64,000 nucleotides of DNA from Tubiluchus corallicola (taxonomy: Eukaryota; Animalia; Priapulida), in NCBI GenBank assembly GCA_030141605.1, contig JAQGDQ010000681.1:49539-113538 (forward strand), written 5' to 3'. How positions within the stretch are numbered: position 1 is the stretch's first letter; each line of letters begins with the position of its first letter. The translations under genes were made by a program, and so were the position numbers. Below are positions 786 through 63,103 of this stretch, in pieces. The notes beneath the pieces were generated by a model. That model was not told the DNA's origin. It worked only from the letters and a program-made list of their open reading frames with translations, and did not search any database.

Positions 786-1185
786 CAGGGATGAGAATAA
801 CAAATTGCAAAAAAAGTCTGAAACAAATTGCAATTTTGTGACAATAGAGAGCCTCTAAGTGGACTTTTTAAATTATGCTTTGGTATTTCGGTTGTTTGTG
901 TCTGGAGGCCTCAAAGCTTCACATTAGTCTGCAATGAAGATATGCCGCATTGCCGTAAAAGGCATGCTACAAATCGTACAGATTATCAAATAAACGATAT
1001 TTACGCTTTATTTGAACTATTTTAGCCAAAATTTTTCAGCGATTTTTAACATCTAGGAGATAAAAGGTAAACTGGATGAATACCTCGAAAAATGCTACTG
1101 AAAGTTTCGGTTACGATTTCGACGAAAACGAGGTTCAACCCCGAAAAATTTTGTTAACGAATTTATGCGATTTACAAAAATCTGC
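786..1185. mobile_element. Partial copy of the CAGGGATGAGAAT hAT-like MITE family
   Basis: Starts with the family TIR; body near-identical to 50050-50350. Confidence 0.7.
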
Positions 1186-1456
1186 AAATTAGGCATCGCA
1201 CTTCCTAGCACTTTCCCTGCCCCTAACCCCCCACACCCGCACACAATCAGCATTACCTGCCCAGGGTAATATCCTAAAAAAATATAGGACATTTTTTGAA
1301 AAAGATATACGAATTATAGGACATTTTCAAAAAATATATGAATTACAGGACATTTTCAAAAAAATATACGAATTATAGGACAAGTACGAGCCCTGCTGCC
1401 CTGCGCAGTAACAAGGACCATAACATTATTATCATTGGCCTTAGTAATATACTTAC

Positions 1457-1631
1457 AGCAACACCACCATATTCAACAAACTTCTCCTGAGACAGCGGAA
1501 AATGTCGAACGAGACACGAAAGGGCGTACAGCATGCGACTCCGTTCCGTATCCCCCGGCTGCGCGGAGAGGTGAAACAGGAGCGTGTGCAAAATGCCCTC
1601 TTCCAGTACAGAAATTTGCACCGGGGGATTG
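1457..1631 (-). CDS. SIL1: SIL1 coding exon 5
   Basis: [12 protein letters not shown]...[25 protein letters not shown]; tttag / gtaagt. Confidence 0.92.
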
Positions 1632-4600
1632 CTAAACAAACAAACAAACAAACAGACAAATGACGTCACATTTCAAAAAACTGAATGTTGGGCAGAAAAG
1701 TTGAATAATTTTGGGGATTTACACATTCCTACAAACGGAAGGAGTTTACATTTCTCCACACAATTTAAATACCCTAACCCTAGCCCTAGCCCTGACCCTA
1801 ATGCTACCCCATTACCCTACACCTAGCCCCAATTCCATGCTAGCTCAATGCTAACCCTACCCCTTACCCTAACCTTAACCCCAAACCTAACCTTAACCCT
1901 AATCGTAATCCTAACAATAATTCTAATCTTAACCCTAACCCTAATTCTAATCTTAACCCTAATCCTAATTCTAATCTTAACCCTAACCCTAACCATAATT
2001 CTAATGTTAACCCCAAACCTAACCCTAACCCTAATCCTAATCTTAACCCTAACCCTAATCATAACACAACTGCCACCACCGCCACCACTATTACCATCAC
2101 CATCACAACAACAAAAACAGTAATAGTAACAGCAACAGCAACAGTAACAATAACAACAACAACAACAGCAGCAGCAGCAGTAACTGAACCTAAACAAGGT
2201 TACAAAATGGTCTGCCGGGCCAAAGAAAACTGATTACAATTCAAGGATATACAAAGATATACCGTATTTTCCCGTGTATAAGAGACCCCTTCAATTTTTA
2301 GGCAAAAATTCTGGAAAAAAGTTTTTTCAGACGGACATTTTTAGAGGGTAAAGTACAACTTTTTTCAACTCAGTGCGGTACTGAAAACAAAATAAAACCA
2401 GTTAATGTGTTGTAGAAAAAGAGTACTGGTATATATTAAAGTGCGTACCTGCAAACCTGTAACAGGAAAAGAGAAAACGAGGAGATAATGCCTGTGTCAC
2501 GATGCTTGTATTGCTTACAACCGCTTCATAGTCGAACGCGACACGCAAAACAGTTGTAGAGCACTTATTTCTTTAAAATCATTAGTGTCACAATTTATGC
2601 ATCTTATTGAAAAGACTTACTCCCATGTATAAGAGACCCCCTATTTTTAAAGTGAAAATTCTGAGCAAAAAAGGGTCTCTTATACACGGGAAAATACGGT
2701 ATATATTTGAGTATATATATATATGTATATCTTTGAGTTGTAATCAGTTTTCTTGGGCGCGGCAAACCGTTTTGAATATATATTATATATATTTATATAT
2801 TTATATATATATATATATATAATCAAAAGCGTTTCCTTCGTTAGAAGCATTATAACAAGGTTTGACTGTACAATCCTGCATAGAACATACCTCTGAAGAG
2901 CAGAACCAAGTACAAGAGCAGCCTCTGTTCTCAGCGAGGAATCAGTGCTATTAAGAGCCTTCTTGATTAGTGGCAAGCCTCCGAATTTGACGAAATCTTG
3001 AGCAACATCAATCTGAAAGTGGACGGGATAATTTTAGTTGGAGCAATCCCATTCACCGGGAACGACAATACGGTAAAACAATGCTCTAATTTGATGATTA
3101 TTGTGTAACATAATCCTCTGAACCATAGTCAATGTCGTGTCGCTAAAGTTGTCGCTGGGGTGCTTTGGGGAGAGCCAACAACCGACATTGGCAAGTTTAT
3201 CAGACTGTTTTTGTAGTTGCGATGTTCGTGTTAAACAGATAAAATCACTTGATGAAAACATGGTTTAACTTTGCGATCTGTATTTTACTCAAAATCATAG
3301 ACTCATAGTCAGTCCACATATATGCAAAAATGGTAAACGTGATCAACAGTAGTAAACAAATGTTAAAGTAAATCCATCAGCCAATATATCATGGCACCTG
3401 AGTCAAAACGTTATTATACCCAAACCACTGTTTAAGCCCATTGCTTGTCCTCTAATCTTGCTACCAAGTGTGAAAAACTACTAGATTCACAGAGAAGCCG
3501 AGTAACCCAGTTCCATACAAACATATAGCAGTAGCAAGTACATACATATATTGGAAACTACCAAGTGTACAAACAGATGTCAGCACTGACTTAGTGATAA
3601 CGAAAAACTAAAGTTTAAAACTACAAATCAAAATTAATAATAAACTGTAAATTAAATGCTCGCAGTCAACAATTATCGTCAAAGCAAAGTAGGTTAACTA
3701 TCTAGAACTACATTAAAAAATTTAAGCAGCAGCAAGGGGGGTGGCAACAACAGCAGCAGCAGCCACAAGTGCCTCGACTGCCGCCGCCGTCAACACCACC
3801 ACCACCATCACGACAACAACAACAACAACAGCAATAACAGCAGCAGCAGCTGCTACAACTGCTGCCACCATCACCATCGCAACAACAAAAACAACAACAA
3901 CAACAATAACAAAAATGACGTTAACAACAACAACAGCAGAAGCTGCTACTACTGCCGCCACTACTACCATCACCATCACAACAACAAAAACAGTAACAAC
4001 AGCAGCAACAGCAAAAACAACAACAGCAGCTGCTACAACTGCCGCCACCACTACTACCATCACCATCACAACAAAAAACAGCAACAGCAGCACCAACAAC
4101 AACAATAACAAAAACAATGACAACAACAGCAGCAACAGCGGCACCAACGACAACAACAACAAAAACAGCAACAGCAATAACAACAGCAAAAATAACAACA
4201 ACAACAACAACAGCAACAACAACAACAACAACAACAACCACAACAACAGCAACAACAACAATACTAATATAAGAAAAAACAACTTGATAACCTGGAAGAA
4301 ATTTCCCACAATCATTCTAACAATCTCAAACATTAATAAAACTAATAAATTAACTGTGAATTAATTGCAACTCTGTACTTCGCTACCGACCTGATGCAAG
4401 TAGTATTCCAAATCGGTGAAAATTCTCACTTTCTCTGCGACGTCTGTGGACTTGTTGTAGCGCTGCAAAAGCTCAGTTACAATTTCCTGGTCGGTCCGAA
4501 CGTCCACTTTCTGGTCCGACAGCATTTTCTTCAGCTCGTCGTAGCTGCGGTGTGAACCGGCCTTTTCCTATGATATTATAATAAATAAAAACGTGTACTA

Positions 4601-5663
4601 AGATAATAATGAAGATAATAATAATAAGAAAATTCTTTGTCACACTTTACCGTCTTTATTGGATCAGCTCTGTTATTATCGGCACATAACTCAAGAATTA
4701 CACGCCAACAACCCTACACCTGCTACTATCTACAACCACATTTTTCATAAACTCAGATCAGGTCATCCATCCAGTAGCATTCTCTTCAATTGTTGCAGAA
4801 CTATATAAAGTACACTAAACGTTTTGCTAACTGATTGTACGTACAGTTGTATTTTACGTTATTATGTAGACTGTCTCTCATTCAAGTACTCATTAATAAA
4901 CAATTTATGCTAGAATCAACTATGCGTACTGCTGTAATAATTGCAATACTACATTAACCGTATTAATTCCATATGTATTGGATTTCTGATTTAAGTAGCA
5001 ACATTGTACATTACAATGTACAACTTGCACTTTGCGTGGGCGTATAGGATTATGTACATCCAGAATCGTTTCTGTTATCGTATCCGTGTATGGGTTTTGT
5101 AAATTTCAATTAAGTATTAACAAATGAACTAGTCGTATTTTTGAATTAACTATTATGCGTTATTACATACTCGAACTAACTAATTGCATATTTCTTCAAT
5201 GCACATAGTGGAAATACTGTGATCAGTAATAGTTACTGTGTTGCAAATCCACTCAAAATAAATAAAGTTATTCCATATATTCAATAAATATATATATACC
5301 AAGATGTTGTAGAACAAATATGGCAAAACATTTCATTAGTTATATGGGACCAGTCCTATAGAATAGACTAAGCCAAAATTCAAAATGTAGTCACTCCCTT
5401 TCAAGTTTTAAAAAAACCGTCAGAAAAGAAATGTTTCAAGAGTATTAAGAGTAACACAGTTTGATAATGGTAATCACCTGCATTCTTTTTCCACAGTAAT
5501 CTTAATCAAATGTGACTATGCTCAACAGGTTACTGAACACTTTATAATCATGATCACGGTTTTCTTAGTTCTCGCTCCATTTCATCATTCATTCACTACT
5601 CGCCCTACATCACAGTTTTTCTTAGTTCTTGCTCCATTTCATCTTTCATTCACTACTCCCCCC

Positions 5664-5707
<44 letters not shown>

Positions 5708-8700
5708 CATTATTTCAATTATTAATCATTTCTTTAAGATTTCCACATACGGTCTGGCCTGTCAAGCTATGCTTTTAGGCTCAAAATGTATGCATCAAAA
5801 TTATTCTGTAATGTAATTTGCACATGTATATGCTGCATAAGAATCTCTTTCGCAATTTCTGGATAACATTGCATTTATATTTATATTTAGTTCAGTGGAA
5901 AATTATCTGTATTTTTTTGTAACTGTAAGATGCAGTGTGGAAATAAATAAACTTAAACTTAACTTAAACTTAAACTATATATACTTTACTGTCTTGAGAA
6001 TCAGCTAGTTCATTCTTAAAGTTCTTCAGTGCTTTCTTTAACTCTTCGGGTGAATATTGTATTTCGCCTGATGCTGAATTTTCATTTTTCTCCATGAGTT
6101 TGGCCTGCTTTTCACCCGTCTGCAGGTCAAGCCTGATGTGAAGCCCGGCCGGAACTTTCTGACCTGCAAAAATCGGACGAATTTATTTATTCCACAGCAA
6201 CAAAAAATACATACAAATCGTTATTACATTGAAAAAAAAATTATAAACCAAACGAGTTACTGTGAGGAGGGGGAAGGAGCATTAAGCTTTCGAGTCCTCC
6301 TCCAGATAAGTGAAACAATTGACAATTAACATTACATTTTCATCAGTTATATCGAACATTAGAACAAAACAAGTTTTGTTAGTAACTTAAGATCAGGATG
6401 AGTAAAATTGTGAGTTAATTATACCGTTGTAGTAAGTAATTCTTTGATGCTTTTTTAAATTAATAAAGATTCAGTCGGAATTGATGACCACATTTTAATA
6501 GCATTATATTTAGATGACTATTTCATTATATTTGTTTTTGGAAGGGGGAGTACGTAGTTTCCGAATGAATATCTTGTGTAATGATCATGTTGATTTGAAA
6601 CAGGACTAAAGTATGACTGAAAAGCTGGTGGAAGTAGTGAATTATGATACTGATACAGGAAATGAAGAGAATGCATGCCATATATTTCTTTCACTTTAAC
6701 AGTTTTAACAGACAAGTAAATTATATTTGTAGGATGGTCATACCTTACATGATATATAAGTTCTGGGTAACTTGTAAAGCTTCCAATTTAATTTTATATA
6801 CACCATCCCACCCCGGATAAAAGCTTGTTACATCCGGGTAAAGAATTACCGGAAGGGCACGAATTTGCCCTTTGCCAAATACATTGCGCAATTGATATTT
6901 CCCTGCTGAATGTCAGATGATTAAAACAGTGAAGCAGTGGCAGCTCGTATATAGGTACTGTGGAAATGCAGCGCCCCCTATTTTCACTCAATATTATTGA
7001 TAATATTTAAGATAATAAGTTGTTTTTCTTTAGTTCTTTATACTTGTACGGAAACCATGTGTATAGGTACCGTGGAACTGCAGCGCCCCCTATTTTCGTT
7101 CATTAATATCGATAATATTCAATATAATAAGTCTTTTTCTTTAGTTCTTTCTTTGTACTTGATAAAAAAGCACAAAAATGAAATACAAGGGTGGTAGCAA
7201 GAGTAAGGAAATGACAATGGAGAGTGAATGAGATGACGGAGAAAATGAAGTTTAGATTCGCATGAGAATGTAACACTGATTTTTGTTACAACATAAATTA
7301 TGTAGACGTTTTTCATACAGTTCGCCCAATCGTGGTTCATGTATAGGTACCGTGGTACAGCAGCACCCCTTGTTTTCACTCATTAATATAGATGATATTC
7401 AATATAATAAGTCTTTTTCTTTAGCTCTTTCTTTATACTTGTACGGAACCAGAGCACAAGATGGTAGTACCGTTTGCTTTACGGCCCAGCACAGTGCGCT
7501 CCAGCAATGCGGTGTTTGGCCGTTATGTCCATGCGGCCATGTGCACATGTCTGAAATAATACGCCGTATGCTGCACTGCTAGTGTCTGCTGCTAAGTAGA
7601 GAAAGTACTGTCACTCACACAGGGTGTGTGCTGTCAGTTGTCACGTGCTCAAAAACTGTGTACTGGCATATTCTTGAACTTCTACAATTTAAGCTATTCG
7701 TAAGCAAAAATTTTATTTAGGATTTTATCAAGTTTATGTATAAATTTTTGTACGTTTGTTTGTTTAAAATTGCAATTAGAACACTAAAATTACATATGTT
7801 TATTTCGTTTTGCATAATATGAAAAAAAAGGCTAAAAATTTTCTAAAGCAGCACCTCCATTAATTTTAACTACGGGCAAGTAGTACGACTGTAAATTCAG
7901 AAAAACAAGTGACAGTATATGTGCAATAAAGCAAGCACACTACTGTAAACGATTTTTTCAAAGACAATTTTTCTTGTACATAAACAACAGAGAACTTTGT
8001 GTATATTGGCTATAAAATGTTTGTGTTTTACTTAAGAGAAAACAGCAATACTATTAAGCACAAAATTTGTGCATTGAGAAGAATATAAATCGACTCTATA
8101 TATTCCGCACCCTCAAAACGCATCCGTAAACGATGCCACGTAAACGCCACTTTAGGCTGTATAGGACAAGGCTTACTTATTAGCTGGTGTTGTGTTTTGT
8201 TTCTCTCGGAAGGCTCGTAGAGAAAACCAGAAAACACTTCATCAAATTAAACTAGTTTATTAAGCGAGAATTCTACAACACAAAAGTATGAAGGAACGTT
8301 TACAGTAAATGTGATAATCTGGAAAACGTTTGAGTGTATCTGAAAAAACAGGTATACAAGAGAATGTGTGCGTCCGTGTGAATCTGCATGTGTCCCTCAG
8401 CGACCTGCTTCGCCTTATATAGGGTGCCAGAGAACATTCTAGACGAGTCTTTCTAGAACATGCTACAAGGTAAGACGATTATTCTAACGGAACATTCTAC
8501 AATGCCAGCGATCTCCACAACAGCTGGGAAAATTCCTGCTTAGCAGTTTTAAAGTTTTTGCTTTTTTCTTTATTCTATTATGTTACGTCTTGTAACAGTG
8601 GACTATTTTAGCATTTCCTATTATCTCTCCCAAATACGCTGTCTTTAGTTTACTTTTACATACAAGACAATTTCCTTTTGTGAAAGTAACTATGTTGTTT

Positions 8701-9209
8701 GTTTTGCATTAAATCACGGATAAATAAGCAGGAATAATAAATTGCATAAATAATGTGCAAAAGCAACGCAACAATGGTAACAGTGCTAAAAACAACGACA
8801 ACAACATCAACAATGACAATAACAACAACGGTTTAGGAAATAGTGATGGCAACGACAATTGTGGCAACAGATACAGCAGCAGCAACACTGTTGGTGACAA
8901 TGACAGCAACAGTAAATACAACAACAGCAGTAAAAACACTGTCACAATAAGAGTGCAATCATCAGCATACATCATATGATTCAGGTTCTTACCAGGTTTT
9001 ATGTGCTGCCATTCCTCAGTTGGATGAAAAATGTCAGTCGCGTCCGCATCATCATCTTCATCGCTCTCCACATCGACACTAGCCTCGTCGTTGTCACCAT
9101 CAGCTTCAACTACGGTGAGAGCGTTCTGTCGTTGCACCATGACAGAAGCGCCTTGTTTCTCAGAACTTGCACAGACACAAAAAAGCAGAAAAATGGCAAA
9201 CTTATACAT
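1457..9209 (-). CDS. SIL1: SIL1 nucleotide exchange factor for BiP, 5' part (exons 8993-9209, 5985-6163, 4391-4567, 2891-3012, 1457-1631; continues left of window)
   Basis: Phase-compatible GT-AG joins give signal peptide [15 protein letters not shown], then [65 protein letters not shown] and [12 protein letters not shown], all SIL1-family motifs. Confidence 0.93.
1770..2060. repeat. Degenerate (CCCTAA)n telomere-like tract
   Basis: Tandem taaccc/taatct hexamers. Confidence 0.85.
2262..2699. mobile_element. Tc1/mariner-type MITE
   Basis: 27-bp TIR CCGTATTTTCCCGTGTATAAGAGACCC, TA on both flanks. Confidence 0.9.
2891..3012 (-). CDS. SIL1: SIL1 coding exon 4
   Basis: [13 protein letters not shown]...[11 protein letters not shown]; tttcag / gtatgt. 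Confidence 0.92.
3725..4265. repeat. Compound trinucleotide microsatellite (CAA/CAG/CAC)
   Basis: Directly visible; similar tracts at 2060-2185 and 8755-8945. Confidence 0.9.
4391..4567 (-). CDS. SIL1: SIL1 coding exon 3
   Basis: [14 protein letters not shown]...[10 protein letters not shown]; ag/gt boundaries. Confidence 0.9.
5320..5975 (+). mobile_element. LINE 3' end (L2/CR1-like) with short-repeat tail
   Basis: [11 protein letters not shown]...SLSSFKK ORF2-end-like peptide; AATAAA followed by (aaactt)n tail. Confidence 0.55.
5985..6163 (-). CDS. SIL1: SIL1 coding exon 2
   Basis: tttttgcag acceptor; [23 protein letters not shown]; phase-0 donor gtatat chosen to match the next exon. Confidence 0.88.
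6180..6750 (-). mobile_element. LINE 3' fragment (L2/CR1/Crack-like), copy 1
   Basis: LPPAFQSYF...[11 protein letters not shown]2 C-terminal peptide; near-identical to 25735-26310. Confidence 0.75.
8188..8522 (-). mobile_element. Solo LTR with heat-shock elements and TATA box
   Basis: TGTTGTG...CACAACA termini; 5-bp TSD GCTGG on both sides; on minus strand HSEs, then TATATAA (8421-8415), then AATAAA (8261-8256). Confidence 0.85.
8415..8500 (-). promoter_or_regulatory. Cluster of heat-shock elements upstream of a TATA box (in solo LTR)
   Basis: aGAAcaTTCt (8431-8440), tTTCtaGAAc (8450-8459), gGAAcaTTCt (8489-8498); TATATAA 8421-8415. Confidence 0.65.
8993..9209 (-). CDS. SIL1: SIL1 coding exon 1 (signal peptide, acidic linker)
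   Basis: ATG at 9209; donor G|gtaaga at 8992. Confidence 0.9.
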
Positions 9210-9316
9210 CGTGAGTACTCAGTAAGAGATACCGTCACTTTAAATGTTTGAAATTGGATCTTTAAGTGTTTGTGATGTGTTAGCACGACTGAGACTTATT
9301 AATGCACATGATAATG

Positions 9317-9535
9317 TCATTGCCAGAAAAGAATGCTAGCTGCCATTAAGACACAACATGCGGCAACATAGGGACTCTTTCGTTCGCCTATTCTGGCACA
9401 CTTCCAGAATATCCCGAGAAAACCCTCTTTGTTTCGGTCCAGAAAGCTCGGCGCCAGCGCACGCACGTAAGCACAGGTACAAATCAGTAGTAAAATAACA
9501 GTCAGTAGGCTCTGAAAATTGAATAGTGCAGACAT
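9317..9535 (-). CDS. TMEM167A: Protein kish (TMEM167A-like), 72 aa, intronless CDS
   Basis: [25 protein letters not shown]...[21 protein letters not shown]: full-length kish-A signature sequence. Confidence 0.96.
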
Positions 9536-10995
9536 GCTTGATGAAAACTTAAATCACCACAATGGTGTTGCGTTGACATTTGCCATGTCAAAGAAATACT
9601 GTCTTGATCTACGACGACACCTGCAAAAGCAAACTTGAATAATTATCAGGATGATTCACAAAAACGTATTATCCTTTTTTATAGCTTAGTTCAGTTTACA
9701 GTGTTCCCTCACTTATCGCGGGTGTTGTTTGGGGGTGTGTTGGGGGTGGGGTTTTTGTGTGTTGTGTTTTTTGTTTTGTGTGTTGTTGTTTGGGTTTTGG
9801 TGTTGTTTTTTTTTTTGTTGTTGTTTGTGTTTTTTGGGGTGTATTAATGATTTAAATAATGTGTCATAAGTTAGAACACTTATGAGGGATCAGTATTATG
9901 GAACTCTCTACCTACTCATATAACTTCTTTACCTCTGCATTCGCTAAAAAAACAGTACGCTAAGGCACTTCTTGAAACTTACAAATAAATCAGTTTTTTT
10001 TTGTCTGTTAGATGTACATTCTTATGGTAACTTTTGCTTAAAAACATTTTTTATGAGGTGCAAACTCACTTTTTTGCTGTTGTATTTTTGTTTTTTGTAT
10101 TTCTGTACGTTTATGTATTTATTAGATGTATTTATCAGAAACAATTGTAAGGTATTTTGCTTAGTAGTTCGTAAATTTGTCATGGTTTTTGATTTTTGTC
10201 TTTTGCTGTTGTATTTTTGTTTTTGTATTTCTGCACGTTTATGTATTTTTTAATATAGCTGTGTCTACTGTCCTTAGCGTCTTTTTGTTTACTGTCCTTT
10301 GAGAAGGGTGGTTGACTCGATAACCTTTGGTTTTTCGCCACCCTTTCTCCTATGTTTGTTTGTATTTTTGTGTATTTTATTGTCAAATTATTGTATATGG
10401 AGGAAAATAAATTACTATTATTACTATTAGTATTATTGTTATGTAGCTCTTGCGGATTTTCCGCTGTCCAAAATCGTAATAAATTATTAACACGAAATAC
10501 ACGCTATGTTATCTTTTTGATCGTGTAACTGAAAAGTTAGAAAATGTCATCTTGTTACAAAAAACGATCTCGAAAATTAATGTAAAATACTATGATACGT
10601 TACAAACTGAAATTGACAGGAAAGCAAGTTTGCGATAATAACACGTGTAATAACAAACAGCAACACAGCGACATCTTTTGCCAACCAATAACTTTTATTC
10701 GAAAATTTGTTGTGCATGTTTATTCACGAGTAAAACGTATCAAAAATATAATTGCGCAAACAAATAAACTACCTAGCTTTATTAATAATTCATTTCCTAT
10801 GATACGGTTTTGTAAACGAAAATCTAATTATTGGATAAAATATATTTTTCATTTACTGCCCTGGTGTTGAAATACAAAACTATTGCGTTCATATGCACTA
10901 TACAGTACTGTATGTAGTGTACTAAGTCCATTTCGCGTACTGTATAACAGTAAATTTTTAGTTAGGCATTTTTATAACATTTATGTAACATTTGT

Positions 10996-11236
10996 ATGGC
11001 TATGTATAGTCGCAGTCAACAACGTGCCTACTTTTTTGTGATAATATTGTTTAGTTTAGCTTCTGCAGCTCTCATTGCAACATCGGTTGGTACAGAAAGT
11101 TGGTTACAGTCTACACTTAATAGGACCGGTGCTGAAGGCGAAGATGGAATGATGTCAAAAGTCAATTTAGGCGTTTTTCTGGGAAACGGCAGCTTCCACA
11201 GAGGCGTACTTGGCTGGGATAACCAAGAATTTCGTG
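10996..11236 (+). CDS. Clarin-like exon 1
   Basis: TM1 then SVGTESW...VNLGVFLG; donor G|gtatgt. Confidence 0.85.
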
Positions 11237-14200
11237 GTATGTTTACAGTTTTTATAGTACCTTACATCACGTCGCGTTCTGACGATTTCAGTATTAAATT
11301 TTGTATTATTAAAGTTTGAACTTTTTTATAAAACAGTGTTGCACCCGATAACGATGATCATACAAATGCTAAATTAATTAAATTTGAAAGCAAACTCCTC
11401 GATAATGTGTGCACTTTCATATTCGTCTGAAGGGCGCATTTTATAACATACCACAGGGAGTTACTGAAAGCAGCTTTCATATAAGTGCCACATAACGAAC
11501 AGGTACAAGATATTACACAACAAGCAGTTGCGCAACCTGCTTGAATTGAAGAGCTATGTAATTAATAATGGCCACGTAGAAACTAAGTTAATAAAAAATA
11601 ATAATGTTTCTAATACACCACAAGTAATTGTTTAATCTGCTCATTACATAATAAGCAAGAGCTGTGCAAATACATGTAATTAATAATGACCACGTAGAAA
11701 CTAGGTTAATAGTGTTTCTAATACACCACAAGTAATTGTTTAATCTGCTTATTACATAACAAGCAAGCGTTATGCACATACATGTAATTAATAATGACCA
11801 CGTAGAAACTTGGTTAATAGTTTTTCTAATACACTACAAGTAATTGTTTGATCCACTCGATACATAACCAACCATAAATTCACAATAAAGATTGACGGGA
11901 CTGAACTATCGGCCTAGGGAGTCTTAAAGCATTGATACGCCGCTGATTATAGATGTGGACTACAGGTAGCTTTCTAAACTCTGTGGACTTCATAAAGGAA
12001 AACTGTATGATTGTTTAGACTCGATCTCATTTTAATTTACTCTACAAAATTTACGCTTTTTGCATATGAAAGTTAGCAAATGTTTCTTATATTTGAACAA
12101 TTAGCTTAGAAAGCTAGTTAACGGCAACTAAATGCAGCTATTGCTTACGTCAGAAACTAACCACAGTTTGTGCAATTTCTGGCATCTTCCCTTGCGCATC
12201 AAGCACGTTTGCGTAAGTGTTACTGTTTAAACGCATGATGTCATTACACTAGGCTCTACATCATATGACGTTAGAAACTAACACTGCAGTTCATGATCAT
12301 GGTTATCACGGTACCGCCTTCTATTTGTCGGACACGTGAATGTGTAGTTTTCAATATTATAGAGCATTCTTTGTCGAAACTAGTGTTTGCGCAATCATCC
12401 GGTTTTGTTTTAAGCTTTGAAGATTACTCCAAAACCTGTAAAATTATGCTTCATTACAGTTGTGTGTGGGCAAGGCTGGTGTATGTATAGCAGTGCTGAA
12501 AGTAAGGACGGACGTAAGCAAGAACTGGATGATGAGATTCTCAAATACGAGAACAACACCGATTCTGGTACGTACTGGGGCAAGCATTTGTACCTGAACT
12601 GCAAAACATTGCATTTCATATCGAGATAACCACACAGCAAGTGGTGCATCGTGTTCCAGGCGTGCCACCAGATGTCGCATCAGTCATTTCAATATGGCAT
12701 GTAGACCGAGTGTAATGGGTGACGTCAGAACAATGGCTTTGCGTCAGCAGTTTTCCAAGTGAAAATTGCCAAAAATAGAACATCTAATTAATTCCTCACT
12801 ACTACTCTTGGTGGATGTGTACTAAAATATAGCCCACATCATCGTGCAGCCCTGTTCCTCTTTCTAAAGAGCTATATATCTTTTTCCGAGAATCCCACCA
12901 GGCGCCGCTAGAACGTTTTTTCTATAGGCTGTTTGACCAAAATTTCCAAAAAAATCCGGAGTTTCAAGCTGAAAAGTCAAATCGACTTCGGCCACATTTT
13001 CCGGGCATAATTCTGAATAAAATAAACTGATATTCTGACAGCGTACTGGTGGCGACGCCTGTCAACCAAATCGCAAAACTTTGCCAGAATATGACACGGC
13101 TAATAAGTCGAACAAGCGTCAAGAAGAATGCTGCTTGTTAAACCACCTTCAAAACTTACTGCAAAACGGGCCATACCATTGATATTTTGAAGGAATTTTC
13201 CGAACAGGTTATGCCTCCAATGTGCTCAAATTCTATTTCCTTGTATTCAGATTGCGTCAAAATCACATTTAAACGTAACTTTTACGACATCGGCGGGTTA
13301 GACTCAATTTGAGAAGTGAGAGAATGCGACCTTCTACGCAAATTTTTATGACGCTCCGGAGGGCCATATGGCTGGTTTACTGGCAAGTGGAAAACAATGC
13401 AGCCACATGCGTCACGTTATCTCGATATGTATCTATCTTGCTTGAACAATTGTATTGGCAAGCGTTTGTACCTGAACTGCAAAACATTGGATTTATCTAC
13501 CTTGCTTGAACAATTGTATTGGCAAGCGTTTGTACCTGAACTGCAAAACATTGGATTTATCTACCTTGCTTGAACAATTGTATTGGCAAGCGTTTGTACC
13601 TGAACTGCAAAACATTGCATTTATCTATCTTGCTTGAACAATTGTATTGGCAAGCGTTTGTACCTGAACTGCAAAACATTGCATTTATCTTTCTTGCTTG
13701 AACAATTGTATTGGCAAGCATTTGTACCTGAACTGCAAAACATTGCATTTATCTGTCTTGCTTGAACAATTGTATTGGCAAGCGTTTGTACCTGAACTGC
13801 AAAACATTGCATTTATCTTTCTTGCTTGAACAATTGTATTGGCAAGCGTTTGTACCTGAACTGCAAAACATTGCATTTATCTTTCTTGCTTGAACAATTG
13901 TATTGGCAAGCATTTGTACCTGAACTGCAAAACATTGCATTTATCTGTCTTGCTTGAACAATTGTGTTAAGGAGAGCCGACGTTTAAACATGTACAGGGG
14001 AAAATGTAGTTATATTACTTAGCATTAAGTTTACTTACTTGATAGGTCTGTAACTAGGAAACAAAATGTCTAGTACAGTAAGACCTCGCTTAACGATGTT
14101 AATGCATTTCAGCAAAACGCATTAACGACGCTTACCACAGCAAAACGTCATTAAACAAAACTTCCATAGAAGTAATGTAAGAGAGCTGAGATTCATTCCA

Positions 14201-17200
14201 GAGGTAAAAATCAATGCTGCTTAAATCGTACAAATTAAACGTTTTATGAGTTTTTTATTGTTTCTACTGATTAATTTGTTTCTGCTCGCTTGAAACCACG
14301 TATCAGAAATGCATTGCACAGTGGCGACTCATGTATACATACTGCGGTACTGCAGCACCCCCTGTTTTCACTCATTATTGTCGATTATATTCAATATAAT
14401 AAGCCTTTTTCTTTAGCTCTTTCTTTATACTTGTACGGAACCCATGTGTATAGGTACCAATAAACAAAATAAGTAAAATACACCACGCAAATCAGCATTT
14501 TTCCCTTCAAAGTGTGAACTTGCCTTAATTAACATCAAGCATCATGCAATCTGAAATGCAGGTAAAAGTATTATTATTATTTATTATTATAATTTTTTAT
14601 TTTTAAAAACTATGTACAGAATACATGTATTTTGTATTTGTATCTGTATCTATCATTATCTGTATTTTTTTTAAAAAAACGAAGTAAAAAAGTTCGTGTA
14701 AGAGCTTGTTGGGGTTTAGCGAAAAATTTAAAAAGAAAATTAGAAATCAGTATACAGTGACTTTCGCGACATCCTGTATTAAGTACAGTATCTTCACTCC
14801 TCCCACCCAACAGAAATCAAGACTATGTGGTTATCTGTATTTTAAATAATAATTACTAGAGGAGCAAAAGCGCCTCCTTGTGGAACTCCTGATTAGCTCA
14901 CACAAAGTCAATTTTATTATTATTATTATTATTATTATTATAATTCTTTGTTTTTAAAAACTATGTACGGAATACATTCTCTCGATTTGTAGGGATATGT
15001 TTAAAATTTCTAAAAGCATTTACAACGTAAATATTCAACAAGTTGAACGATGACGATCTTATACAATAGACATAGTTACAAATTGTAATCCAACACCACA
15101 TACATACATAATAAAAGATAACAAACATGTTTTAATACTTAGTAACAAAAATTTACACACATTATGCACAATGAAAAACAGCGAGTAATCATAAATAAAA
15201 ACAAAACAGCATATAGCAAACACGACGAGAGTTGTAAAATTTTATCACCAACAGACTGGTTATATACGGGCGAAAGATGACAGGAATTCATCCGAGATAA
15301 GATTTCCATGAGAAAGTTCCAGTTAAGAAAATAATCCATTCTACACCTTCAAATATGACTGCAACATTTAAATTACACATGTTTGTTACATTTTACACAG
15401 TGTTTAAACAATGGCTAAACATGTTCTGAAGCAGCACCCCCACTAATCTTAGTTACGAACCGCCACTAGACACAATGATAGATTCAGATTTTAATCTGAA
15501 ATTTAAAGTCTTTATAGTTTAATAGTTTGATATATCTTAATAGTTTCTTCTTTACCAACCGCCCTATAACATCACGTCAGTGTAACAACGCATATATTTC
15601 TATGTACAAAAATATAGACTCAATTATAGCGAGTTATCTGAGTCAACTGCCAATAGTTTTTATATACTGTTACCCGTGGCCATCTCGTCACGCTGTCTAT
15701 AACCGTAGTCGTTACGCAATTTCCTATTATAATATAAGATATAACTCTATGTTGTTTCAACCTTGCTATTTGTCAGGACAGTGCACAAAAAAGGTGGTGT
15801 ACCTCTCACTTCAGAGGTACTGTGGAGAGCCTCGTTGAAGCACGCGTACTTTCATAACTACTAATTGAGATTAGTTGACGCTATTACTCACTCATTGTTT
15901 CAGACATTGATTACCACCATTACGGGTTGTTCGGAGTCGCCATGTACGTATTACTGTTTATTTTCGGAGGAATCGCCGTAATTTGGGCGTTCGTTTCCGC
16001 GACGTTTGCTCTGATCAACATCGTCACGAAGCCAATAGAAACGATAAACGGACCTCTGGGATTGTTTGCCTGGAACGGATTGGGGCGTAAGTAAAATTAA
16101 ACAGATTTACGCTACTGTAACTCCTCGCTAAACAATGCCTGCGTGTCCCAGAAAAACGCGATTGAGCGAAACATCATTAAAGGAAGCCAATACATTCCAT
16201 CGAAAGTAATGTAAAAGAATTGAGATACATTCCAGAGGTATAAATTAATGCCGCTTAAATCATATAAATTAAAGGTTTTATGAGTTTTACTCATGTTTCT
16301 ACTGATTAATTTCTTTCTGCATTCTAACAAAATGAGACGTTAAGCGAAACGTCGTCAAACGAAGCCAAGACTTCCATAGAAAGTAATGTAAAAGAATTGA
16401 GACACGTTCTAGAGACATAAATTAGTGCTGCTTAAATCACTCAAGATTTTATGAGTTTTACTCATGTTTCTGCTGACTAATTTCTTCCTGCTTGGTTAAA
16501 AGCACCTGTATATCATCAGCTAGCAGCAGGGATGAGAATTTTCCGCGGATACACGGAATTCCGAGTTTTTGGAAGACCAGTAGTGCCATTTTTGTAAATC
16601 GCGTAAATTCGTTGAGAAAATTTTTACGGACCCAGTACATTATTTCACAAGCTGACCGCTAGTTGGCAGGCCGTCACTTTGTTTACATCACATACATCAG
16701 TGTAACCACGTGTATATCTCTATGTATAAAAATATAGAATCAATTGTGTGGAGTTATTTGAGTCAATTGCAGACAGTTTTTGTATTCTTTTGCATAGGAG
16801 CGTCCAGTACTTAGGCATTTTTGAGACAATTAGGTATCATGTATCCTTGATAGTTGGGTATTTTAAATTATGCATGAAACATGCTAACTGATATTTTAAG
16901 GACACTTAGATACTCTCTAGGGTCACAAAATTGCACCAAAACCCCCGACCTGTTTCAGAGTTTTTTGCAATTTGTCATTCTCATCCCTGTAGCATTTAGT
17001 GGTCAGTCGGGAAGCAAAAACGTATATTTTTATAACAATTGCACTGTTTATGCTATTAACGCATTTTTAGAACAGAATAACGCATGCACCATTTTAATAC
17101 ATCAAATTAGGTAAAAAGGTTGTTGACAAAATAAAAATTAATTCACAATTTTATTAAAATTTTTAACTTACGTAGTTAAAAAATCATGCCAAAAGTTTCG

Positions 17201-17594
17201 GCAGAGCTACTGCTATCATCAGTGGTGACAACGGAAGTATGACTGTATTTCCTATTTTAATAAATTTGAATTTTTCTGAATTTGTGCTCTTTGATTGTAA
17301 TAACTAACGTCTTTTGTTCTTTCAGTTTTCTTTACCGTGGCCTCACTGTTTATGTACGTGGGGATCTTCACCAAAGATTTAAAGAACGGATTTTTGCCCA
17401 GCGAGTACGACCGGTTTCGCATAGAGACCTGCACCGTCAGCTGGTCATTCTACATCATGATCGGCGCCGTTGCGTGTTTTGCCGTCAACATCGTGCTCGT
17501 GTTCCTCTCCGGCGTGGATTTTGAACCGATGTGCAGGCGGAAAGGTTCGATATCCGGGCACGAGTACGACAATCCCGACATGATCATGTTTTAA
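10996..17594 (+). CDS. Clarin-family tetraspan protein, 230 aa (exons 10996-11236, 15904-16086, 17326-17594)
   Basis: Four hydrophobic segments; clarin motif INIVTKPIETINGPLGLFAWN; SWSFY before TM4; two phase-1 GT-AG introns; 693-nt open CDS. Confidence 0.88.
12617..13429. mobile_element. Non-autonomous TIR element inserted into a 64-bp satellite unit
   Basis: 14-bp TIR CATATCGAGATAAC/GTTATCTCGATATG; the flanks are the two halves of one satellite unit. Confidence 0.75.
13430..13965. repeat. 64-bp minisatellite, ~8 copies
   Basis: Unit tatcttgcttgaacaattgtattggcaagcgtttgtacctgaactgcaaaacattgcatt... Confidence 0.95.
15904..16086 (+). CDS. Clarin-like exon 2
   Basis: ttgtttcag acceptor; KPIETINGPLGLFAWNGLG; gtaagt donor. 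Confidence 0.9.
16527..16989. mobile_element. hAT-like MITE (TIR CAGGGATGAGAAT)
   Basis: TIRs at both ends; flanks tagcag / tagcat. Confidence 0.85.
17326..17594 (+). CDS. Clarin-like exon 3
   Basis: ctaac branch + ttctttcag acceptor; SWSFYIMIGAVACFAVNIVLV; stop TAA. Confidence 0.88.
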
Positions 17595-25068: not shown

Positions 25069-34348
<9,280 letters not shown>

Positions 34349-37882: not shown

Positions 37883-59168
<21,286 letters not shown>

Positions 59169-60114
59169 CTACAAAAAATAAAAAAAGAAACGTATGAGTG
59201 CATGTGAGGTAGCAATTTATATACAAAGTGCAAAAAACTAATAATATTGAGTCAAAACTTTGTGAATAAAATACATTTATAAACTCTTTATGCAATGGGA
59301 AAATATCGGTAGACGGGCAATGGTATATCAAGACAGTACAAAGTCCTACGCTGATAGTTCAGTCTCAGCCATGTCTATTATGAATTTATGATTGTTTATA
59401 TATGAAGCAAAAATCATAACTGTTTGTGGTGTATTCCTACTCAGGAGCAACATAAAGGCTTGGTAATCCACACGGACCATTACGGGTCTCAAGGAAATTG
59501 ACTTAAATACAGATATAGAAAGAGCGCGGCTTGTTGCTAAAGGAGAAATTGATTAAAGCAAAACTGGACCCAATCTCAAACTGTAGGTCAAAAGAAAACG
59601 GGGTTTTTTAAAATATTGGAATGAAACACTATATTTTCAAAAATGATTTACGTGAAAGAATAATTAACACACAAACACAATTTCGCATTCGCGCCACTAG
59701 TTCTTCGCTGTTACATGCATTTCACCATTCCCTAGTTGATGCAGTGCTTAGTTCAGATGTGTTAGTTTGTAATGAACTACACAAGTCCGACAGCTCATGT
59801 TGAATGTCTTATAGTAGAACCTGCCTGTCATTAATTAAGTTTTGAATCTATTATTTAATTATCAGAAATGCCTTTGCAGGATTAATTGTGTTAAAATGTA
59901 TACCTTTTATCAAATTTGAAAGAGGGGTAGCATAAGAAAAATCATCCTGTCTTCGTTTAAATGTGATATTTTCATTTTTTTGACACTTACTGTTGTGATT
60001 TCTTTTCTAATCGTGTAAATTTTGTTTGCAGTAAATTGACTTTTTGCTACGTTTATGAGTTTTTGCTCGAACCTCAACTGGAAGATAAAATCTTTTTATA
60101 TTTTTTATAGAACC

Positions 60115-62688
60115 TCTCTCAGGAGGTATTTCTCCATGTCTATCTCTCTTAGAAGGTATTTCTGCATGTCTATCTCTCTCAGAAGGTATTTCTCCATGTC
60201 TATCTCTCTTAGAAGGTATTTCTGCATGTCTATCTCTCTCTGGAGGTATTTCCCCATGTCTATCTCTCTCAGAAGGTATTTCTCCATGTCTATCTCTCTT
60301 AGAAGGTATTTCTGCATGTCTATCTCTCTCAGAAGGTATTTCTCCATGTCTATCTCTCTTAGAAGGTATTTCTGCATGTCTATCTCTCTTAGAAGGTATT
60401 TCTGCATGTCTATCTCTCTCTGGAGGTATTTCCCCATGTCTATCTCTCTCTGGAGGTATTTCCCCATGTCTATCTCTCTCTGGAGGTATTTCCCCATGTC
60501 TATCTCTCTCTGGAGGTATTTCTCCATGTCTATCTCTCTCTGGAGGTATTTCCCCATGTCTATCTCTCTCTGGAGGTATTTCCCCATGTCCATCTCTCTC
60601 TGGAGGTATTTCCCCATGTCCATCTCTCTCTGGAGGTATTTCCCCATGTCTATCTCTCTCTGGAGGTATTTCCCCATGTCTATCTCTCTCTGGAGGTATT
60701 TCCCCATGTCTATCTCTCTCTGGAGGTATTTCCCCATGTCTATCTCTCTCTGGAGGTATTTCCCCCATGTCTATCTCTCTCTGGAGGTATTTCCCCATGT
60801 CTATCTCTCTCTGGAGGTATTTCCCCCATGTCTATCTCTCTCTGGAGGTATTTCCCCATGTCTATCTCTCTCTGGAGGTATTTCTCCATGTGTCTCTCTC
60901 TCTCTCTGGAGGTATTTCCCCATGTCCATCTCTCTCTGGAGGTATTTCCCCATGTCCGTCTCTCTCTGGAGGTATTTCTCCATGTGTCTCTCTCTCTCTG
61001 GAGGTATTTCCCCATGTCCATCTCTCTCTGGAGGTATTTCCCCATGTCTATCTCTCTCTGGAGGTATTTCTCCATGTGTCTCTCTCTCTCTCTGGAGGTA
61101 TTTCCCCATGTCTATCTCTCTCTGGAGGTATTTCCCCATGTCTATCTCTCTCTGGAGGTATTTCCCCATGTCTCTCTCTCTCTGGAGGTATTTCCCCATG
61201 TCTATCTCTCTCTGGAGGTATTTCCCCATGTCCGTCTCTCTCTGGAGGTATTTCTCCATGTGTCTCTCTCTCTCTCTGGAGGTATTTCCCCATGTCCATC
61301 TCTCTCTGGAGGTATTTCCCCATGTCCGTCTCTCTCTGGAGGTATTTCTCCATGTGTCTCTCTCTCTCTCTGGAGGTATTTCCCCATGGCTATCTCTCTC
61401 TGGAGGTATTTCCCCATGTCTATCTCTCTCTGGAGGTATTTCCCCCATGTCTATCTCTCTCTGGAGGTATTTCCCCCATGTCTATCTCTCTCTGGAGGTA
61501 TTTCCCCATGTCTATCTCTCTCTGGAGGTATTTCCCCATGTCTATCTCTCTCTGGAGGTATTTCCCTGTTTCTCTCTTGGGTTTTCCATGTCTATCTCTC
61601 TCTGGAGGTATTTCCCCATGTTTATCTCTCTCTGGAGGTATTTCCCCATGTCTATCTCTCTCTGGAGGTATTTCCCCATGTCTATCTCTCTCTGGAGGTA
61701 TTTCCCCATGTCTATCTCTCTCTGGAGGTATTTCCCCATGTCTATCTCTCTCTGGAGGTATTTCCCCATGTCTATCTCTCTCTGGAGGTATTTCCCCATG
61801 TCTATCTCTCTCTGGAGGTATTTCCCCATGTCTATCTCTCTCTCTGGAGGTATTTCCCATGTCTATCTCTCTCTGGAGGTATTTCCCCATGTCCATCTCT
61901 CTCTGGAGGTATTTCCCCATGTCCGTCTCTCTCTGGAGGTATTTCTCCATGTGTCTCTCTCTCTCTGGAGGTATTTCCCCATGTCTATCTCTCTCTGGAG
62001 GTATTTCCCCATGTCTATCTCTCTCTGGAGGTATTTCCCCATGTCTATCTCTCTCTGGAGGTATTTCCCCATGTCTATCTCTCTCTGGAGGTATTTCCCC
62101 ATGTCTATCTCTCTCTGGAGGTATTTCCCCATGTCTATCTCTCTCTGGAGGTATTTCCCCATGTCTATCTCTCTCTGGAGGTATTTCCCCATGTCTATCT
62201 CTCTCTGGAGGTATTTCTCCATGTGTCTCTCTCTCTCTGGAGGTATTTCCCCATGTCTATCTCTCTCTGGAGGTATTTCCCCATGTCTATCTCTCTCTGG
62301 AGGTATTTCCCCATGTCTATCTCTCTCTGGAGGTATTTCCCCGTGTCTATCTCTCTCTGGAGCTACTTCTGCATGTCTATCTCTCTCTGGAGGTATTTCC
62401 CCATGTCTATCTCTCTCTGGAGGTATTTCCCCATGTCTATCTCTCTCTGGAGGTATTTCCCTATGTCTATCTCTCTCTGGAGGTATTTCCCCATGTCTAT
62501 CTCTCTCTGGAGGTATTTCCCCATGTCTATCTCTCTCTGGAGGTATTTCCCCATGTCTATCTCTCTCTGGAGGTATTTCCCCATGACTATCTCTCTCAGG
62601 AGGTATTTCTCCATGTCTATCTCTCTCTGGAGGTATTTCTGCATGTCTATCTCTCTCTGGAGGTATTTCCCCATGTCTATCTCCATGT
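60115..62688. repeat. 30-bp minisatellite (tctatctctctctggaggtatttccccatg), ~2.6 kb
   Basis: Directly visible, roughly 80+ units; lies in a USP19 intron. Confidence 0.97.
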
Positions 62689-63103
62689 CTTCATTGTATG
62701 TATTATGCTATAATGACAATAAATTGCTTAATTACTTACTTATTTACCTGCTTAGTTACTTGCTTACTTACTTGCTTGCTTGCCTGCTTGCCTGCTTACT
62801 TAACATTAAGAGATTTTGTAGTGTGTTTTTGTGCCTTGTTTACTTTAGAGTCGTAAATGTACTCATTGTTTCGTTCTGCAAGATTTTTAACATCAAGAGT
62901 GCCATTTTTGCCAAAATGAGCGTCTGCACTCAAAATTGACCGTACTATCGTATACGGTCAATAAAAAGATATCACAAAACTACATCCTAAATTATAATAA
63001 TCACCTTAGTCAGGTAGCTAGGACAAAATAAACAAGACTAATCAAGTTTGTAAACAACTTACAACCCACTTCTCTGACTACTGTGCCCCAGGACGTATGC
63101 AAA

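What the first reader, a model, noticed from the sequence alone, without database searches (positions are those of the whole stretch)
8993..9620. Intronless kish sits 107 nt upstream of the SIL1 start codon: candidate bicistronic or operon-like secretory-pathway unit
Seen: an intact 72-aa kish ORF (9535-9317) and the SIL1 ATG (9209) are on the same strand with a 107-nt spacer. The spacer has no AATAAA/ATTAAA and only weak AG acceptors (ttaaag, tactgag). A good acceptor (tttgcttttgcag, ending 9621) lies upstream of kish, so one exon 9620-8993 would carry all of kish plus SIL1's first coding exon. Known: kish/TMEM167 is a small Golgi/secretion factor and SIL1 is the ER BiP exchange factor; vertebrate TMEM167A is multi-exon. 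Inference: 107 nt is too little for a separate 3' UTR plus promoter. The two proteins may share one mRNA (leaky scanning or reinitiation, with kish as a functional uORF tuning SIL1), be resolved by trans-splicing, or use alternative acceptors from one promoter.
Basis: partly seen in the sequence, partly recalled or inferred. Interest (0 to 1): 0.85.

Follow-up and report, generated by a model that had tools for sequence, protein, structure and literature searches.

The report
Kish hitchhiking on SIL1 messenger RNA
In this invertebrate genome a complete, intron-free gene for the tiny secretion factor kish ends 107 bases before the start of the ER chaperone helper SIL1, so the two likely share one messenger RNA; other, apparently animal, sequences place kish the same way in front of different genes, so this is likely a new case of a known two-gene arrangement rather than a dedicated kish-SIL1 module.

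Summary
In detail: an intact, intronless 72-aa kish-A ORF (9535-9317) ends 107 nt before the SIL1 start (9209). No RNA record covers kish or SIL1 exon 1, so a shared mRNA is inferred, not shown. Human kish and 18 intron-split loci carry introns at positions where this copy has none, which points to retroposition. The kish-SIL1 pair is not seen elsewhere: 0 of 80 kish loci, 0 of 119 longer kish models, and different contigs in a horseshoe crab and a snail. The architecture does recur: in 8 of 26 unbroken kish loci an unrelated, homology-supported ORF starts 15-61 nt after the stop (CHID1, TM2-domain, LipB-type, PWWP, MutL_C). A spliced-looking contig holds both kish and CHID1. Pure leaky scanning is not supported, because AUGs are not depleted. 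Best reading (0.6): a retro-derived kish as first cistron of the SIL1 transcript, of the STREMI-SLC35A4 type. New member of a known kind.

The parts
9317..9535 (-). kish-A (TMEM167A/DUF1242) ORF, 72 aa, intronless; start context -3 A, +4 U
   Evidence: 31-35 synonymous versus 12-14 amino-acid-changing codon differences against three other kish CDSs
9210..9316 (-). 107-nt spacer: no AATAAA/ATTAAA, one ATG (9309, 9-codon ORF), longest A run 3
8993..9209 (-). SIL1 coding exon 1: hydrophobic signal-peptide-like start, acidic stretch, conserved FHPTxEW motif; donor GTAAGA follows
5985..6163 (-). SIL1 exon 2
   Evidence: X2 contig joins it to exon 3
4391..4567 (-). SIL1 exon 3
   Evidence: X2 contig
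2891..3012 (-). SIL1 exon 4
   Evidence: X2 contigs
1457..1631 (-). SIL1 exon 5 (the rest of the gene was not found in the window)
9651..9683 (-). candidate core promoter: TATAAAAA at 9683 with TCAT whose A (9652) lies 31 nt downstream; predicted start site about 9652
   Evidence: chance 0.02-0.06 per 200 nt, found post hoc, untested
   Evidence: chance about 0.23
9573..9591 (-). 7-bp inverted repeat (5-nt loop) overlapping two upstream ATGs: 9586 (10 codons, in frame with kish, stops before it) and 9579 (25 codons, overlaps the kish start)
   Evidence: local z -2.4 on a window chosen around it; whole leader z -0.3
9287..9292 (-). TCAGTC: initiator-like motif and CAG acceptor candidate, downstream of every internal ATG; possible start of a SIL1-only RNA
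   Evidence: chance 0.07-0.16 per 107 nt; DPE-like motif is 2 nt off the canonical spacing
9240..9320 (-). 26-codon ORF whose ATG overlaps the kish stop (AUGA); in the SIL1 frame but stops 30 nt before SIL1
8569..8574 (-). first canonical AATAAA downstream of kish, inside SIL1 intron 1; possible end of a kish-only RNA

Best explanation
An intron-free kish gene lies directly ahead of SIL1's first coding exon and is likely transcribed with it from one promoter, so that a spliced RNA would carry kish as a first, abundantly translated reading frame and SIL1 as a second. Kish likely lost its ancestral introns by reverse transcription and settled in the SIL1 leader. Most scanning ribosomes would make kish. 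SIL1 would be made at a lower level by ribosomes that skip the kish AUG or pass through the short 7-9-codon ORFs and re-initiate over the last 70 AUG-free bases. A shorter SIL1-only RNA starting or spliced near 9290 may add to this. Shown: the ORFs, spacing, exon structure, intron loss, and recurrence of the layout with other partners. Inferred: the shared RNA, the promoter, the translation mode and the origin.
For: (1) No canonical poly(A) signal lies before the exon-1 donor; the first is in intron 1. This is compatible but weak on its own. (2) A TATA-plus-initiator candidate lies 117 nt upstream of kish. (3) An intron right after the ATG and one at codon 38 are seen in the 18 split kish loci inspected and in human TMEM167A (PMC12618065 passages); both are absent here. 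(4) The same layout occurs elsewhere. Genomic L017 has kish, 24 nt, then exon 1 of a TM2-domain gene and an intron. P0293/P0298 have kish, 51-54 nt, the CHID1 start, then loss of similarity where L007 continues. L007 and L003 carry kish plus an uninterrupted 395-399-aa CHID1 after 15 and 45 nt. Most listed full-length members of the L007 CHID1 cluster lie on contigs of 1.7-1.8 kb, the size of the two-ORF unit. (5) 107 nt lies in the -34 to 319 nt range of Drosophila loci that make only polycistronic transcripts (PMC4528330 passages). (6) Precedent for a long conserved first ORF with many AUGs: SLC35A4 has a 102-codon uORF and 11 leader AUGs, with stress-resistant downstream translation (PMC4383229, PMC13303939 passages).
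Against: No RNA record spans the two ORFs here. AUGs are not depleted between the two starts (5 seen, 5.5 expected), against a median ratio of about 0.5 in algal bicistrons (PMC11892635 passages). The kish start has -3 A like the SIL1 start, so it is not weak. Intronless kish can be monocistronic: L002 has AATAAA shortly after its stop and no close partner, and 16 of 26 unbroken loci have no ORF of 60 codons or more within 110 nt. Short-read contigs can merge overlapping neighbours (L001 holds kish and a convergent MBD gene). No poly(A) remnant marks a retro-insertion. In human bicistrons the intronless ORF is more often the downstream one (50% versus 14.3%).
Confidence: 0.6

Rival explanations
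1. Two overlapping monocistronic transcripts. Kish is cleaved at a non-canonical signal in the spacer, or reads through and ends at the AATAAA in SIL1 intron 1. SIL1 starts from its own initiator near 9290, with promoter elements inside the kish ORF.
For: AATAAG (9300) and TTTAAA (9244) are in the spacer, and a U-rich stretch follows in the SIL1 signal-peptide codons. A perfect TCAGTC at 9292-9287 would give an AUG-free 81-nt leader. AATAAA lies at 8574. FlyBase finds downstream promoters and upstream poly(A) sites to be the usual source of monocistronic alternatives. A related RNA-like run has SIL1 exon 2-5 contigs at depth 41-99, which shows spliced SIL1 exists but does not rank it.
Against: TCAGTC is expected in 7-16% of such windows, and the DPE-like motif is 2 nt off. 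Spacers of 15-24 nt at the analogous loci leave no room for this arrangement.
Confidence: 0.2
2. An operon resolved by spliced-leader trans-splicing: one pre-mRNA is cut after kish and a leader is added at an AG in the spacer.
For: The roughly 100-nt spacing resembles nematode operons (recalled). The strong acceptor-like site at 9621 has no convincing donor in the nearby single-copy DNA. Gene predictors fuse kish to varied neighbours in flatworms, a rotifer and nematodes, groups with trans-splicing (listing; rotifer recalled).
Against: The spacer AGs are weak: the only YAG has 5 pyrimidines in 11, and the AG nearest the ATG is GAG. No Rfam match at 8500-11500 (a leader gene need not be local). 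Searches listed no paper on trans-splicing in priapulids, the group that unchecked earlier notes suggest.
Confidence: 0.1
3. A shared upstream non-coding exon splices either to 9620 (kish-bearing RNA) or to 9288/9217 (SIL1-only RNA).
For: The 9621 site scores like the real exon-2 acceptor, and SIL1's own exon-3 acceptor is also pyrimidine-poor, so weak acceptors work in this gene.
Against: Strong donors upstream (10069, 9982) lie in DNA that is highly repeated in run X1. The TATA-initiator candidate would put the start only about 30 nt upstream of 9621.
Confidence: 0.07
4. The kish ORF is a silent or recent processed copy, and the working gene lies elsewhere in the genome.
For: It is intronless, and no whole genome was available to look for a parent gene.
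Against: The ORF is intact and highly conserved, with mostly synonymous differences. It lacks the poly(A) signal and tail that a recent copy would carry.
Confidence: 0.03

Closest known systems
Human STREMI-SLC35A4 and the 14 human bicistronic transcripts, 'gene symbiosis' by retroposition (PMC13303939, abstract and passages; PMC4383229, passages)
   Same: A conserved small membrane protein ORF ahead of an unrelated secretory-pathway ORF; an intronless partner whose orthologues have introns; many AUGs in the leader; both genes older than their pairing.
   Different: There the shared mRNA and stress-induced downstream translation are shown; here they are inferred. There the downstream ORF is the intronless one; here it is the upstream ORF.
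Drosophila dicistronic loci, e.g. Tim9b and Mocs2-CG42503 (PMC4528330, passages and File S1 search) and sloth1-sloth2 (PMC9681215, passages)
   Same: Small housekeeping protein as first cistron; unrelated partners are the majority (82% lack similarity); stop-to-start distance in the same range.
   Different: ksh/kish and Sil1 were not found in the 12 supplementary files searched (control terms found; file 1 not searchable; CG numbers recalled). sloth1 has a weak start and a 5-nt spacer; kish here has -3 A and five intervening AUGs.
Green-algal leaky-scanning bicistrons (PMC7896298, supplements searched; PMC11892635, passages)
   Same: Short first ORF, short spacer, long second ORF.
   Different: The weak first start and AUG depletion typical of those loci are absent here; kish and SIL1 terms had 0 hits in the 7 supplementary files of PMC7896298.
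Spliced-leader operons of nematodes, flatworms and tunicates (search listing; details recalled)
   Same: About 100 nt between same-strand genes; kish is often tightly packed in such genomes.
   Different: No strong acceptor or canonical poly(A) signal in the spacer; no evidence of a spliced leader in this animal.

Membership tests
kish-A / TMEM167A | 72-aa protein with DUF1242 (PF06842) | tested here: met
SIL1 | Signal-peptide-like start, N-terminal conserved motif and ARM-type exchange domain; best hits named SIL1 | tested here: met
   single exons alone gave no SIL1 Pfam hit
Eukaryotic bicistronic mRNA | Two distinct conserved ORFs, same strand, stop-to-start distance of -34 to 319 nt | tested here: met
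Eukaryotic bicistronic mRNA | One mature RNA holds both ORFs | tested here: inconclusive
   No RNA holder listed; X2 contigs cover exons 2-5 only. Contig-level support only at the analogous kish-CHID1 locus.
Eukaryotic bicistronic mRNA | Both proteins are translated from that RNA | not testable with these tools
   needs ribosome profiling or reporters
Retroposition-derived bicistron (STREMI type) | One ORF is intronless although its orthologues have introns | tested here: met
Retroposition-derived bicistron (STREMI type) | Poly(A) remnant after the inserted ORF | tested here: not met
   longest A run in the spacer is 3; expected to decay in an old insertion
Retroposition-derived bicistron (STREMI type) | Stress-induced translation of the downstream ORF | not testable with these tools
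   known for SLC35A4 only
Leaky-scanning bicistron (algal / sloth type) | Weak start context on ORF 1 | tested here: not met
   -3 A at both starts; judged by the general -3 purine rule, no species-specific matrix
Leaky-scanning bicistron (algal / sloth type) | AUG depletion ahead of ORF 2 | tested here: not met
   5 seen, 5.5 expected
Spliced-leader operon | Spliced-leader RNA and leader-bearing reads in the organism | not testable with these tools
   no genome, no raw RNA reads
Spliced-leader operon | Strong acceptor just ahead of the downstream gene | tested here: inconclusive
   only a weak CAG (9289) and a GAG (9218), but a real acceptor of this gene is also weak
Conserved microsyntenic gene pair | kish next to SIL1 in other lineages | tested here: not met
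   0 of 80 loci, 0 of 119 longer models, different contigs in Tachypleus and Nucella; no close relative was available

The most novel reading that the evidence does not exclude
Kish has repeatedly and [13 protein letters not shown] lost its introns and moved into the leaders of mRNAs for signal-peptide proteins (SIL1, CHID1, a TM2-domain protein). The long downstream protein would tether the RNA to the ER, where a 72-residue membrane protein too short for efficient co-translational targeting is then made in place. At this locus the kish ORF would also make the BiP exchange factor SIL1 rise during ER stress, as STREMI does for SLC35A4.
Probability: 0.2. Interest if true: 0.7.

Novelty: new member of a known kind. 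Interest (0 to 1): 0.4.

Why it matters
Annotation pipelines usually keep one CDS per transcript (general knowledge), so an essential trafficking factor (TMEM167A variants cause a neonatal diabetes syndrome, PMC12618065) could be missed when it sits in another gene's leader; this kish protein is absent from the 15-billion-protein collection. Kish appears as first ORF with at least five different partners, which makes it a natural series for asking how two-gene mRNAs arise and whether partner identity matters. If the kish ORF couples SIL1 output to ER stress, it would extend the STREMI model to an invertebrate ER chaperone cofactor. The kind of arrangement itself is well known: 2.5% of Drosophila genes have a polycistronic transcript.

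Tried and rejected
No whole genome is held. The run search gave 2 runs, with no RNA holder listed; this says nothing about expression. Laying X1 and X2 on 1000-12500 and X2 on 5900-11400 at 80% likeness gave X2 contigs on SIL1 exons 2-5 and on repeats, and none on exon 1 or kish; holes prove nothing because records are filtered. A homologue search with SIL1 exon 2 among longer proteins found nothing; exon 5 against the representatives worked. Rfam on 8500-11500 gave 0 matches. Folding: leader z -0.3, spacer z +0.65, so no IRES-like or other structure is suggested. Viral contigs held no kish relative; genome contigs gave 1 locus, not analysed. A stop-start (AUGA) reinitiation into SIL1 was rejected, because that ORF stops at 9240 and a second in-frame stop follows. 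An in-frame kish-SIL1 fusion was rejected: different frames, and no fused model among 119. Enrichment of secretory partners is not significant: 3 of 5 kish-A partner types, P 0.16 at an assumed 30% background. Literature searches listed no paper on kish or SIL1 in a bicistronic setting. The one paper in one search (PMC10655558, listing only) concerns IER3IP1. PMC2276209 had 0 hits for kish or SIL1 terms in its main text. The supplement of PMC7530721 (animal conserved uORFs) could not be read and may bear on novelty. The animal's taxon was not established here.

Full report
What is there. The minus strand carries an intact 72-codon ORF at 9535-9317. It matches DUF1242 at E 1.4e-21, and its best hits among 766 are kish-A proteins of spiders, ticks, insects, annelids and molluscs at 83-88% identity. 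Its stop lies 107 nt before an ATG at 9209. From there five exons (9209-8993, 6163-5985, 4567-4391, 3012-2891, 1631-1457), all GT-AG, give 290 codons without a stop. This sequence aligns from residue 4 to full-length proteins at about 41-44% identity for the best hits; sources name several of them SIL1, in abalone, brachiopod, amphioxus and horseshoe crab. An RNA-like run of a related organism has contigs that join exons 2-3, 3-4 and 4-5. The animal is an invertebrate; unchecked earlier notes on this genome suggest a priapulid, which I did not test.

The missing poly(A) signal carries little weight, since 470 of 552 107-nt windows of SIL1 introns lack it too. Acceptor-like sites as strong as 9621 occur at 1.75 per kb in this window.

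Direct RNA evidence. None. The run search listed one probable DNA holder and one run guessed to be RNA. Neither laying showed an X2 contig on exon 1 or kish, and the tool warns that such holes prove nothing.

Is the pair conserved? Not in what could be examined. Local tblastn of the SIL1 exons found nothing in 80 kish loci, the best 80 of 88 found in metagenome contigs; many of these are short or fungal. None of 119 longer kish-containing proteins resembles SIL1. In Tachypleus tridentatus the two genes lie on records of 275.9 and 196.3 Mb, and in Nucella lapillus on records of 5.16 and 0.66 Mb with distant locus tags. No close relative was available, so clade-level conservation is open.

Is the layout recurrent? 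Yes. Of the 80 loci, 19 were dropped for lacking the kish 3' end or 300 nt downstream and 4 were partial. Of 26 with an unbroken match (one, L020, has a short intron near the start), 10 have an ORF of 60 codons or more starting within 110 nt; of 31 split loci, 4 do, all short and untested for homology. Eight of the 10 have homology support and start 15-61 nt after the stop: CHID1 in L003, L006 and L007 (L003 versus human CHID1 E 1e-93), a LipB-type enzyme in L004, a PWWP protein in L011, a TM2-domain protein in L017 and a MutL_C fragment after kish-B in L059/L060. The comparison of unbroken with split loci is biased, because many unbroken loci are probably transcripts, and no other small gene was run as a control. 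Two cases copy this window's anatomy. L017 is genomic: intronless kish, 24 nt, a first coding exon with a hydrophobic start, then introns. P0293 and P0298 read from kish through a 51-54-nt spacer into the CHID1 start and lose similarity at the point where L007 continues, as expected for a genomic intron that is spliced out in L007. Short-read contigs do not prove single molecules, but a 15-nt spacer leaves no room for separate ends.

Origin. All 18 split loci inspected have an acceptor directly before codon 2 and a donor at codon 38. Human TMEM167A has the same two introns and four exons (PMC12618065, passages). Their absence here indicates loss through a reverse-transcribed copy (inference). 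Mostly synonymous differences to other kish CDSs and the lack of an A tract argue against a recent dead copy.

Mechanism. The kish start has A at -3, as does SIL1's. Five AUGs lie between them, against 5.5 expected, so the two signatures of leaky-scanning bicistrons in algae and of sloth1-sloth2 (PMC11892635 and PMC9681215, passages) are not met. L004 and L017, by contrast, have a single in-frame AUG. Re-initiation after 72 codons is generally poor (recalled). The workable route is leakage to the short 7-9-codon ORFs followed by re-initiation over the last 70 nt, giving much kish and little SIL1. SLC35A4, with a 102-codon conserved uORF and 11 leader AUGs, is a precedent and is translated more under stress (PMC4383229 and PMC13303939, passages). 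Human TMEM167A is induced by ER stressors, so co-regulation with SIL1 would make sense, but secretory partners are not significantly enriched (3 of 5, P 0.16). A SIL1-only RNA from about 9290 and a kish-only RNA ending at the AATAAA at 8574 remain possible; FlyBase describes such alternatives as common (PMC4528330, passages).

Novelty. Two-ORF mRNAs with a small first protein are known in flies (159 pairs), algae and humans. Searches listed no paper describing kish or SIL1 in one. The terms were absent from the searchable supplements of PMC4528330 (positive control; one file unsearchable) and PMC7896298; the supplement of PMC7530721 could not be read. Earlier unchecked notes on other genomes describe similar cases (BBIP1, CENP-S), which is not independent support. 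Verdict: observation confirmed, interpretation partly supported, new member of a known kind, interest 0.4. The more interesting lead is kish's repeated placement ahead of changing partners rather than the SIL1 pairing itself.

Noticed in passing
window 10996-17594 (+): Clarin-like gene (PF25807 on one exon) head-to-head with kish, its first ATG 1.46 kb from the kish ATG; much of the DNA between them is highly repeated in run X1.
   Followed up: partly
L003 171-1622, L006, L007 171-1604; P0293, P0298: kish followed after 15-54 nt by CHID1 in divergent sequences (61% and 42-43% GC contigs), in both spliced-looking and intron-bearing forms: a good candidate for a conserved two-ORF transcript in an unidentified, probably animal, group.
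   Followed up: partly
L017 3748-4330; L018 1452-2318: kish lies 24 nt upstream of a TM2-domain gene in L017, while in L018 a related TM2-domain gene lies head-to-head about 70 nt from kish.
   Followed up: partly
L004 33-999; L011 14-1622: kish followed by a LipB-type lipoyl transferase after 52 nt (ATTAAA in the spacer) and by a PWWP protein after 61 nt.
   Followed up: partly
L059 37-1665, L060: A kish-B (cluster includes Hydra vulgaris kish-B-like) followed after 54 nt by a 449-aa MutL C-terminal fragment; it may be a chimeric contig or a nested gene.
   Followed up: no
P0256, P0258, P0259, P0265, P0267, P0270, P0315, P0317: Public gene models fuse kish to unrelated neighbours in schistosomes, Macrostomum, Brachionus, an ostracod and nematodes, probably prediction merges of tightly packed genes.
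   Followed up: partly
window 4391-4567 and 2891-3015, run X2: X2 differs from the window by about 10-14% in SIL1 exons although it was added under a 'same species label', while X1 differs by about 3% at 8627-9169; possible cryptic species or loose label.
   Followed up: no
window 31926-32249 (-) and 44305-49530 (-): Exons resembling an SRSF10-type RRM protein and a USP19-type deubiquitinase (names recalled from the translations, not tested).
   Followed up: no
window 60007-62939: Long tandem repeat giving stop-free frames of up to 874 codons on the + strand.
   Followed up: no
L081 2321-2537: A kish match, apparently interrupted by an intron, inside a Dysgonomonas MAG contig; probably eukaryotic contamination.
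   Followed up: no
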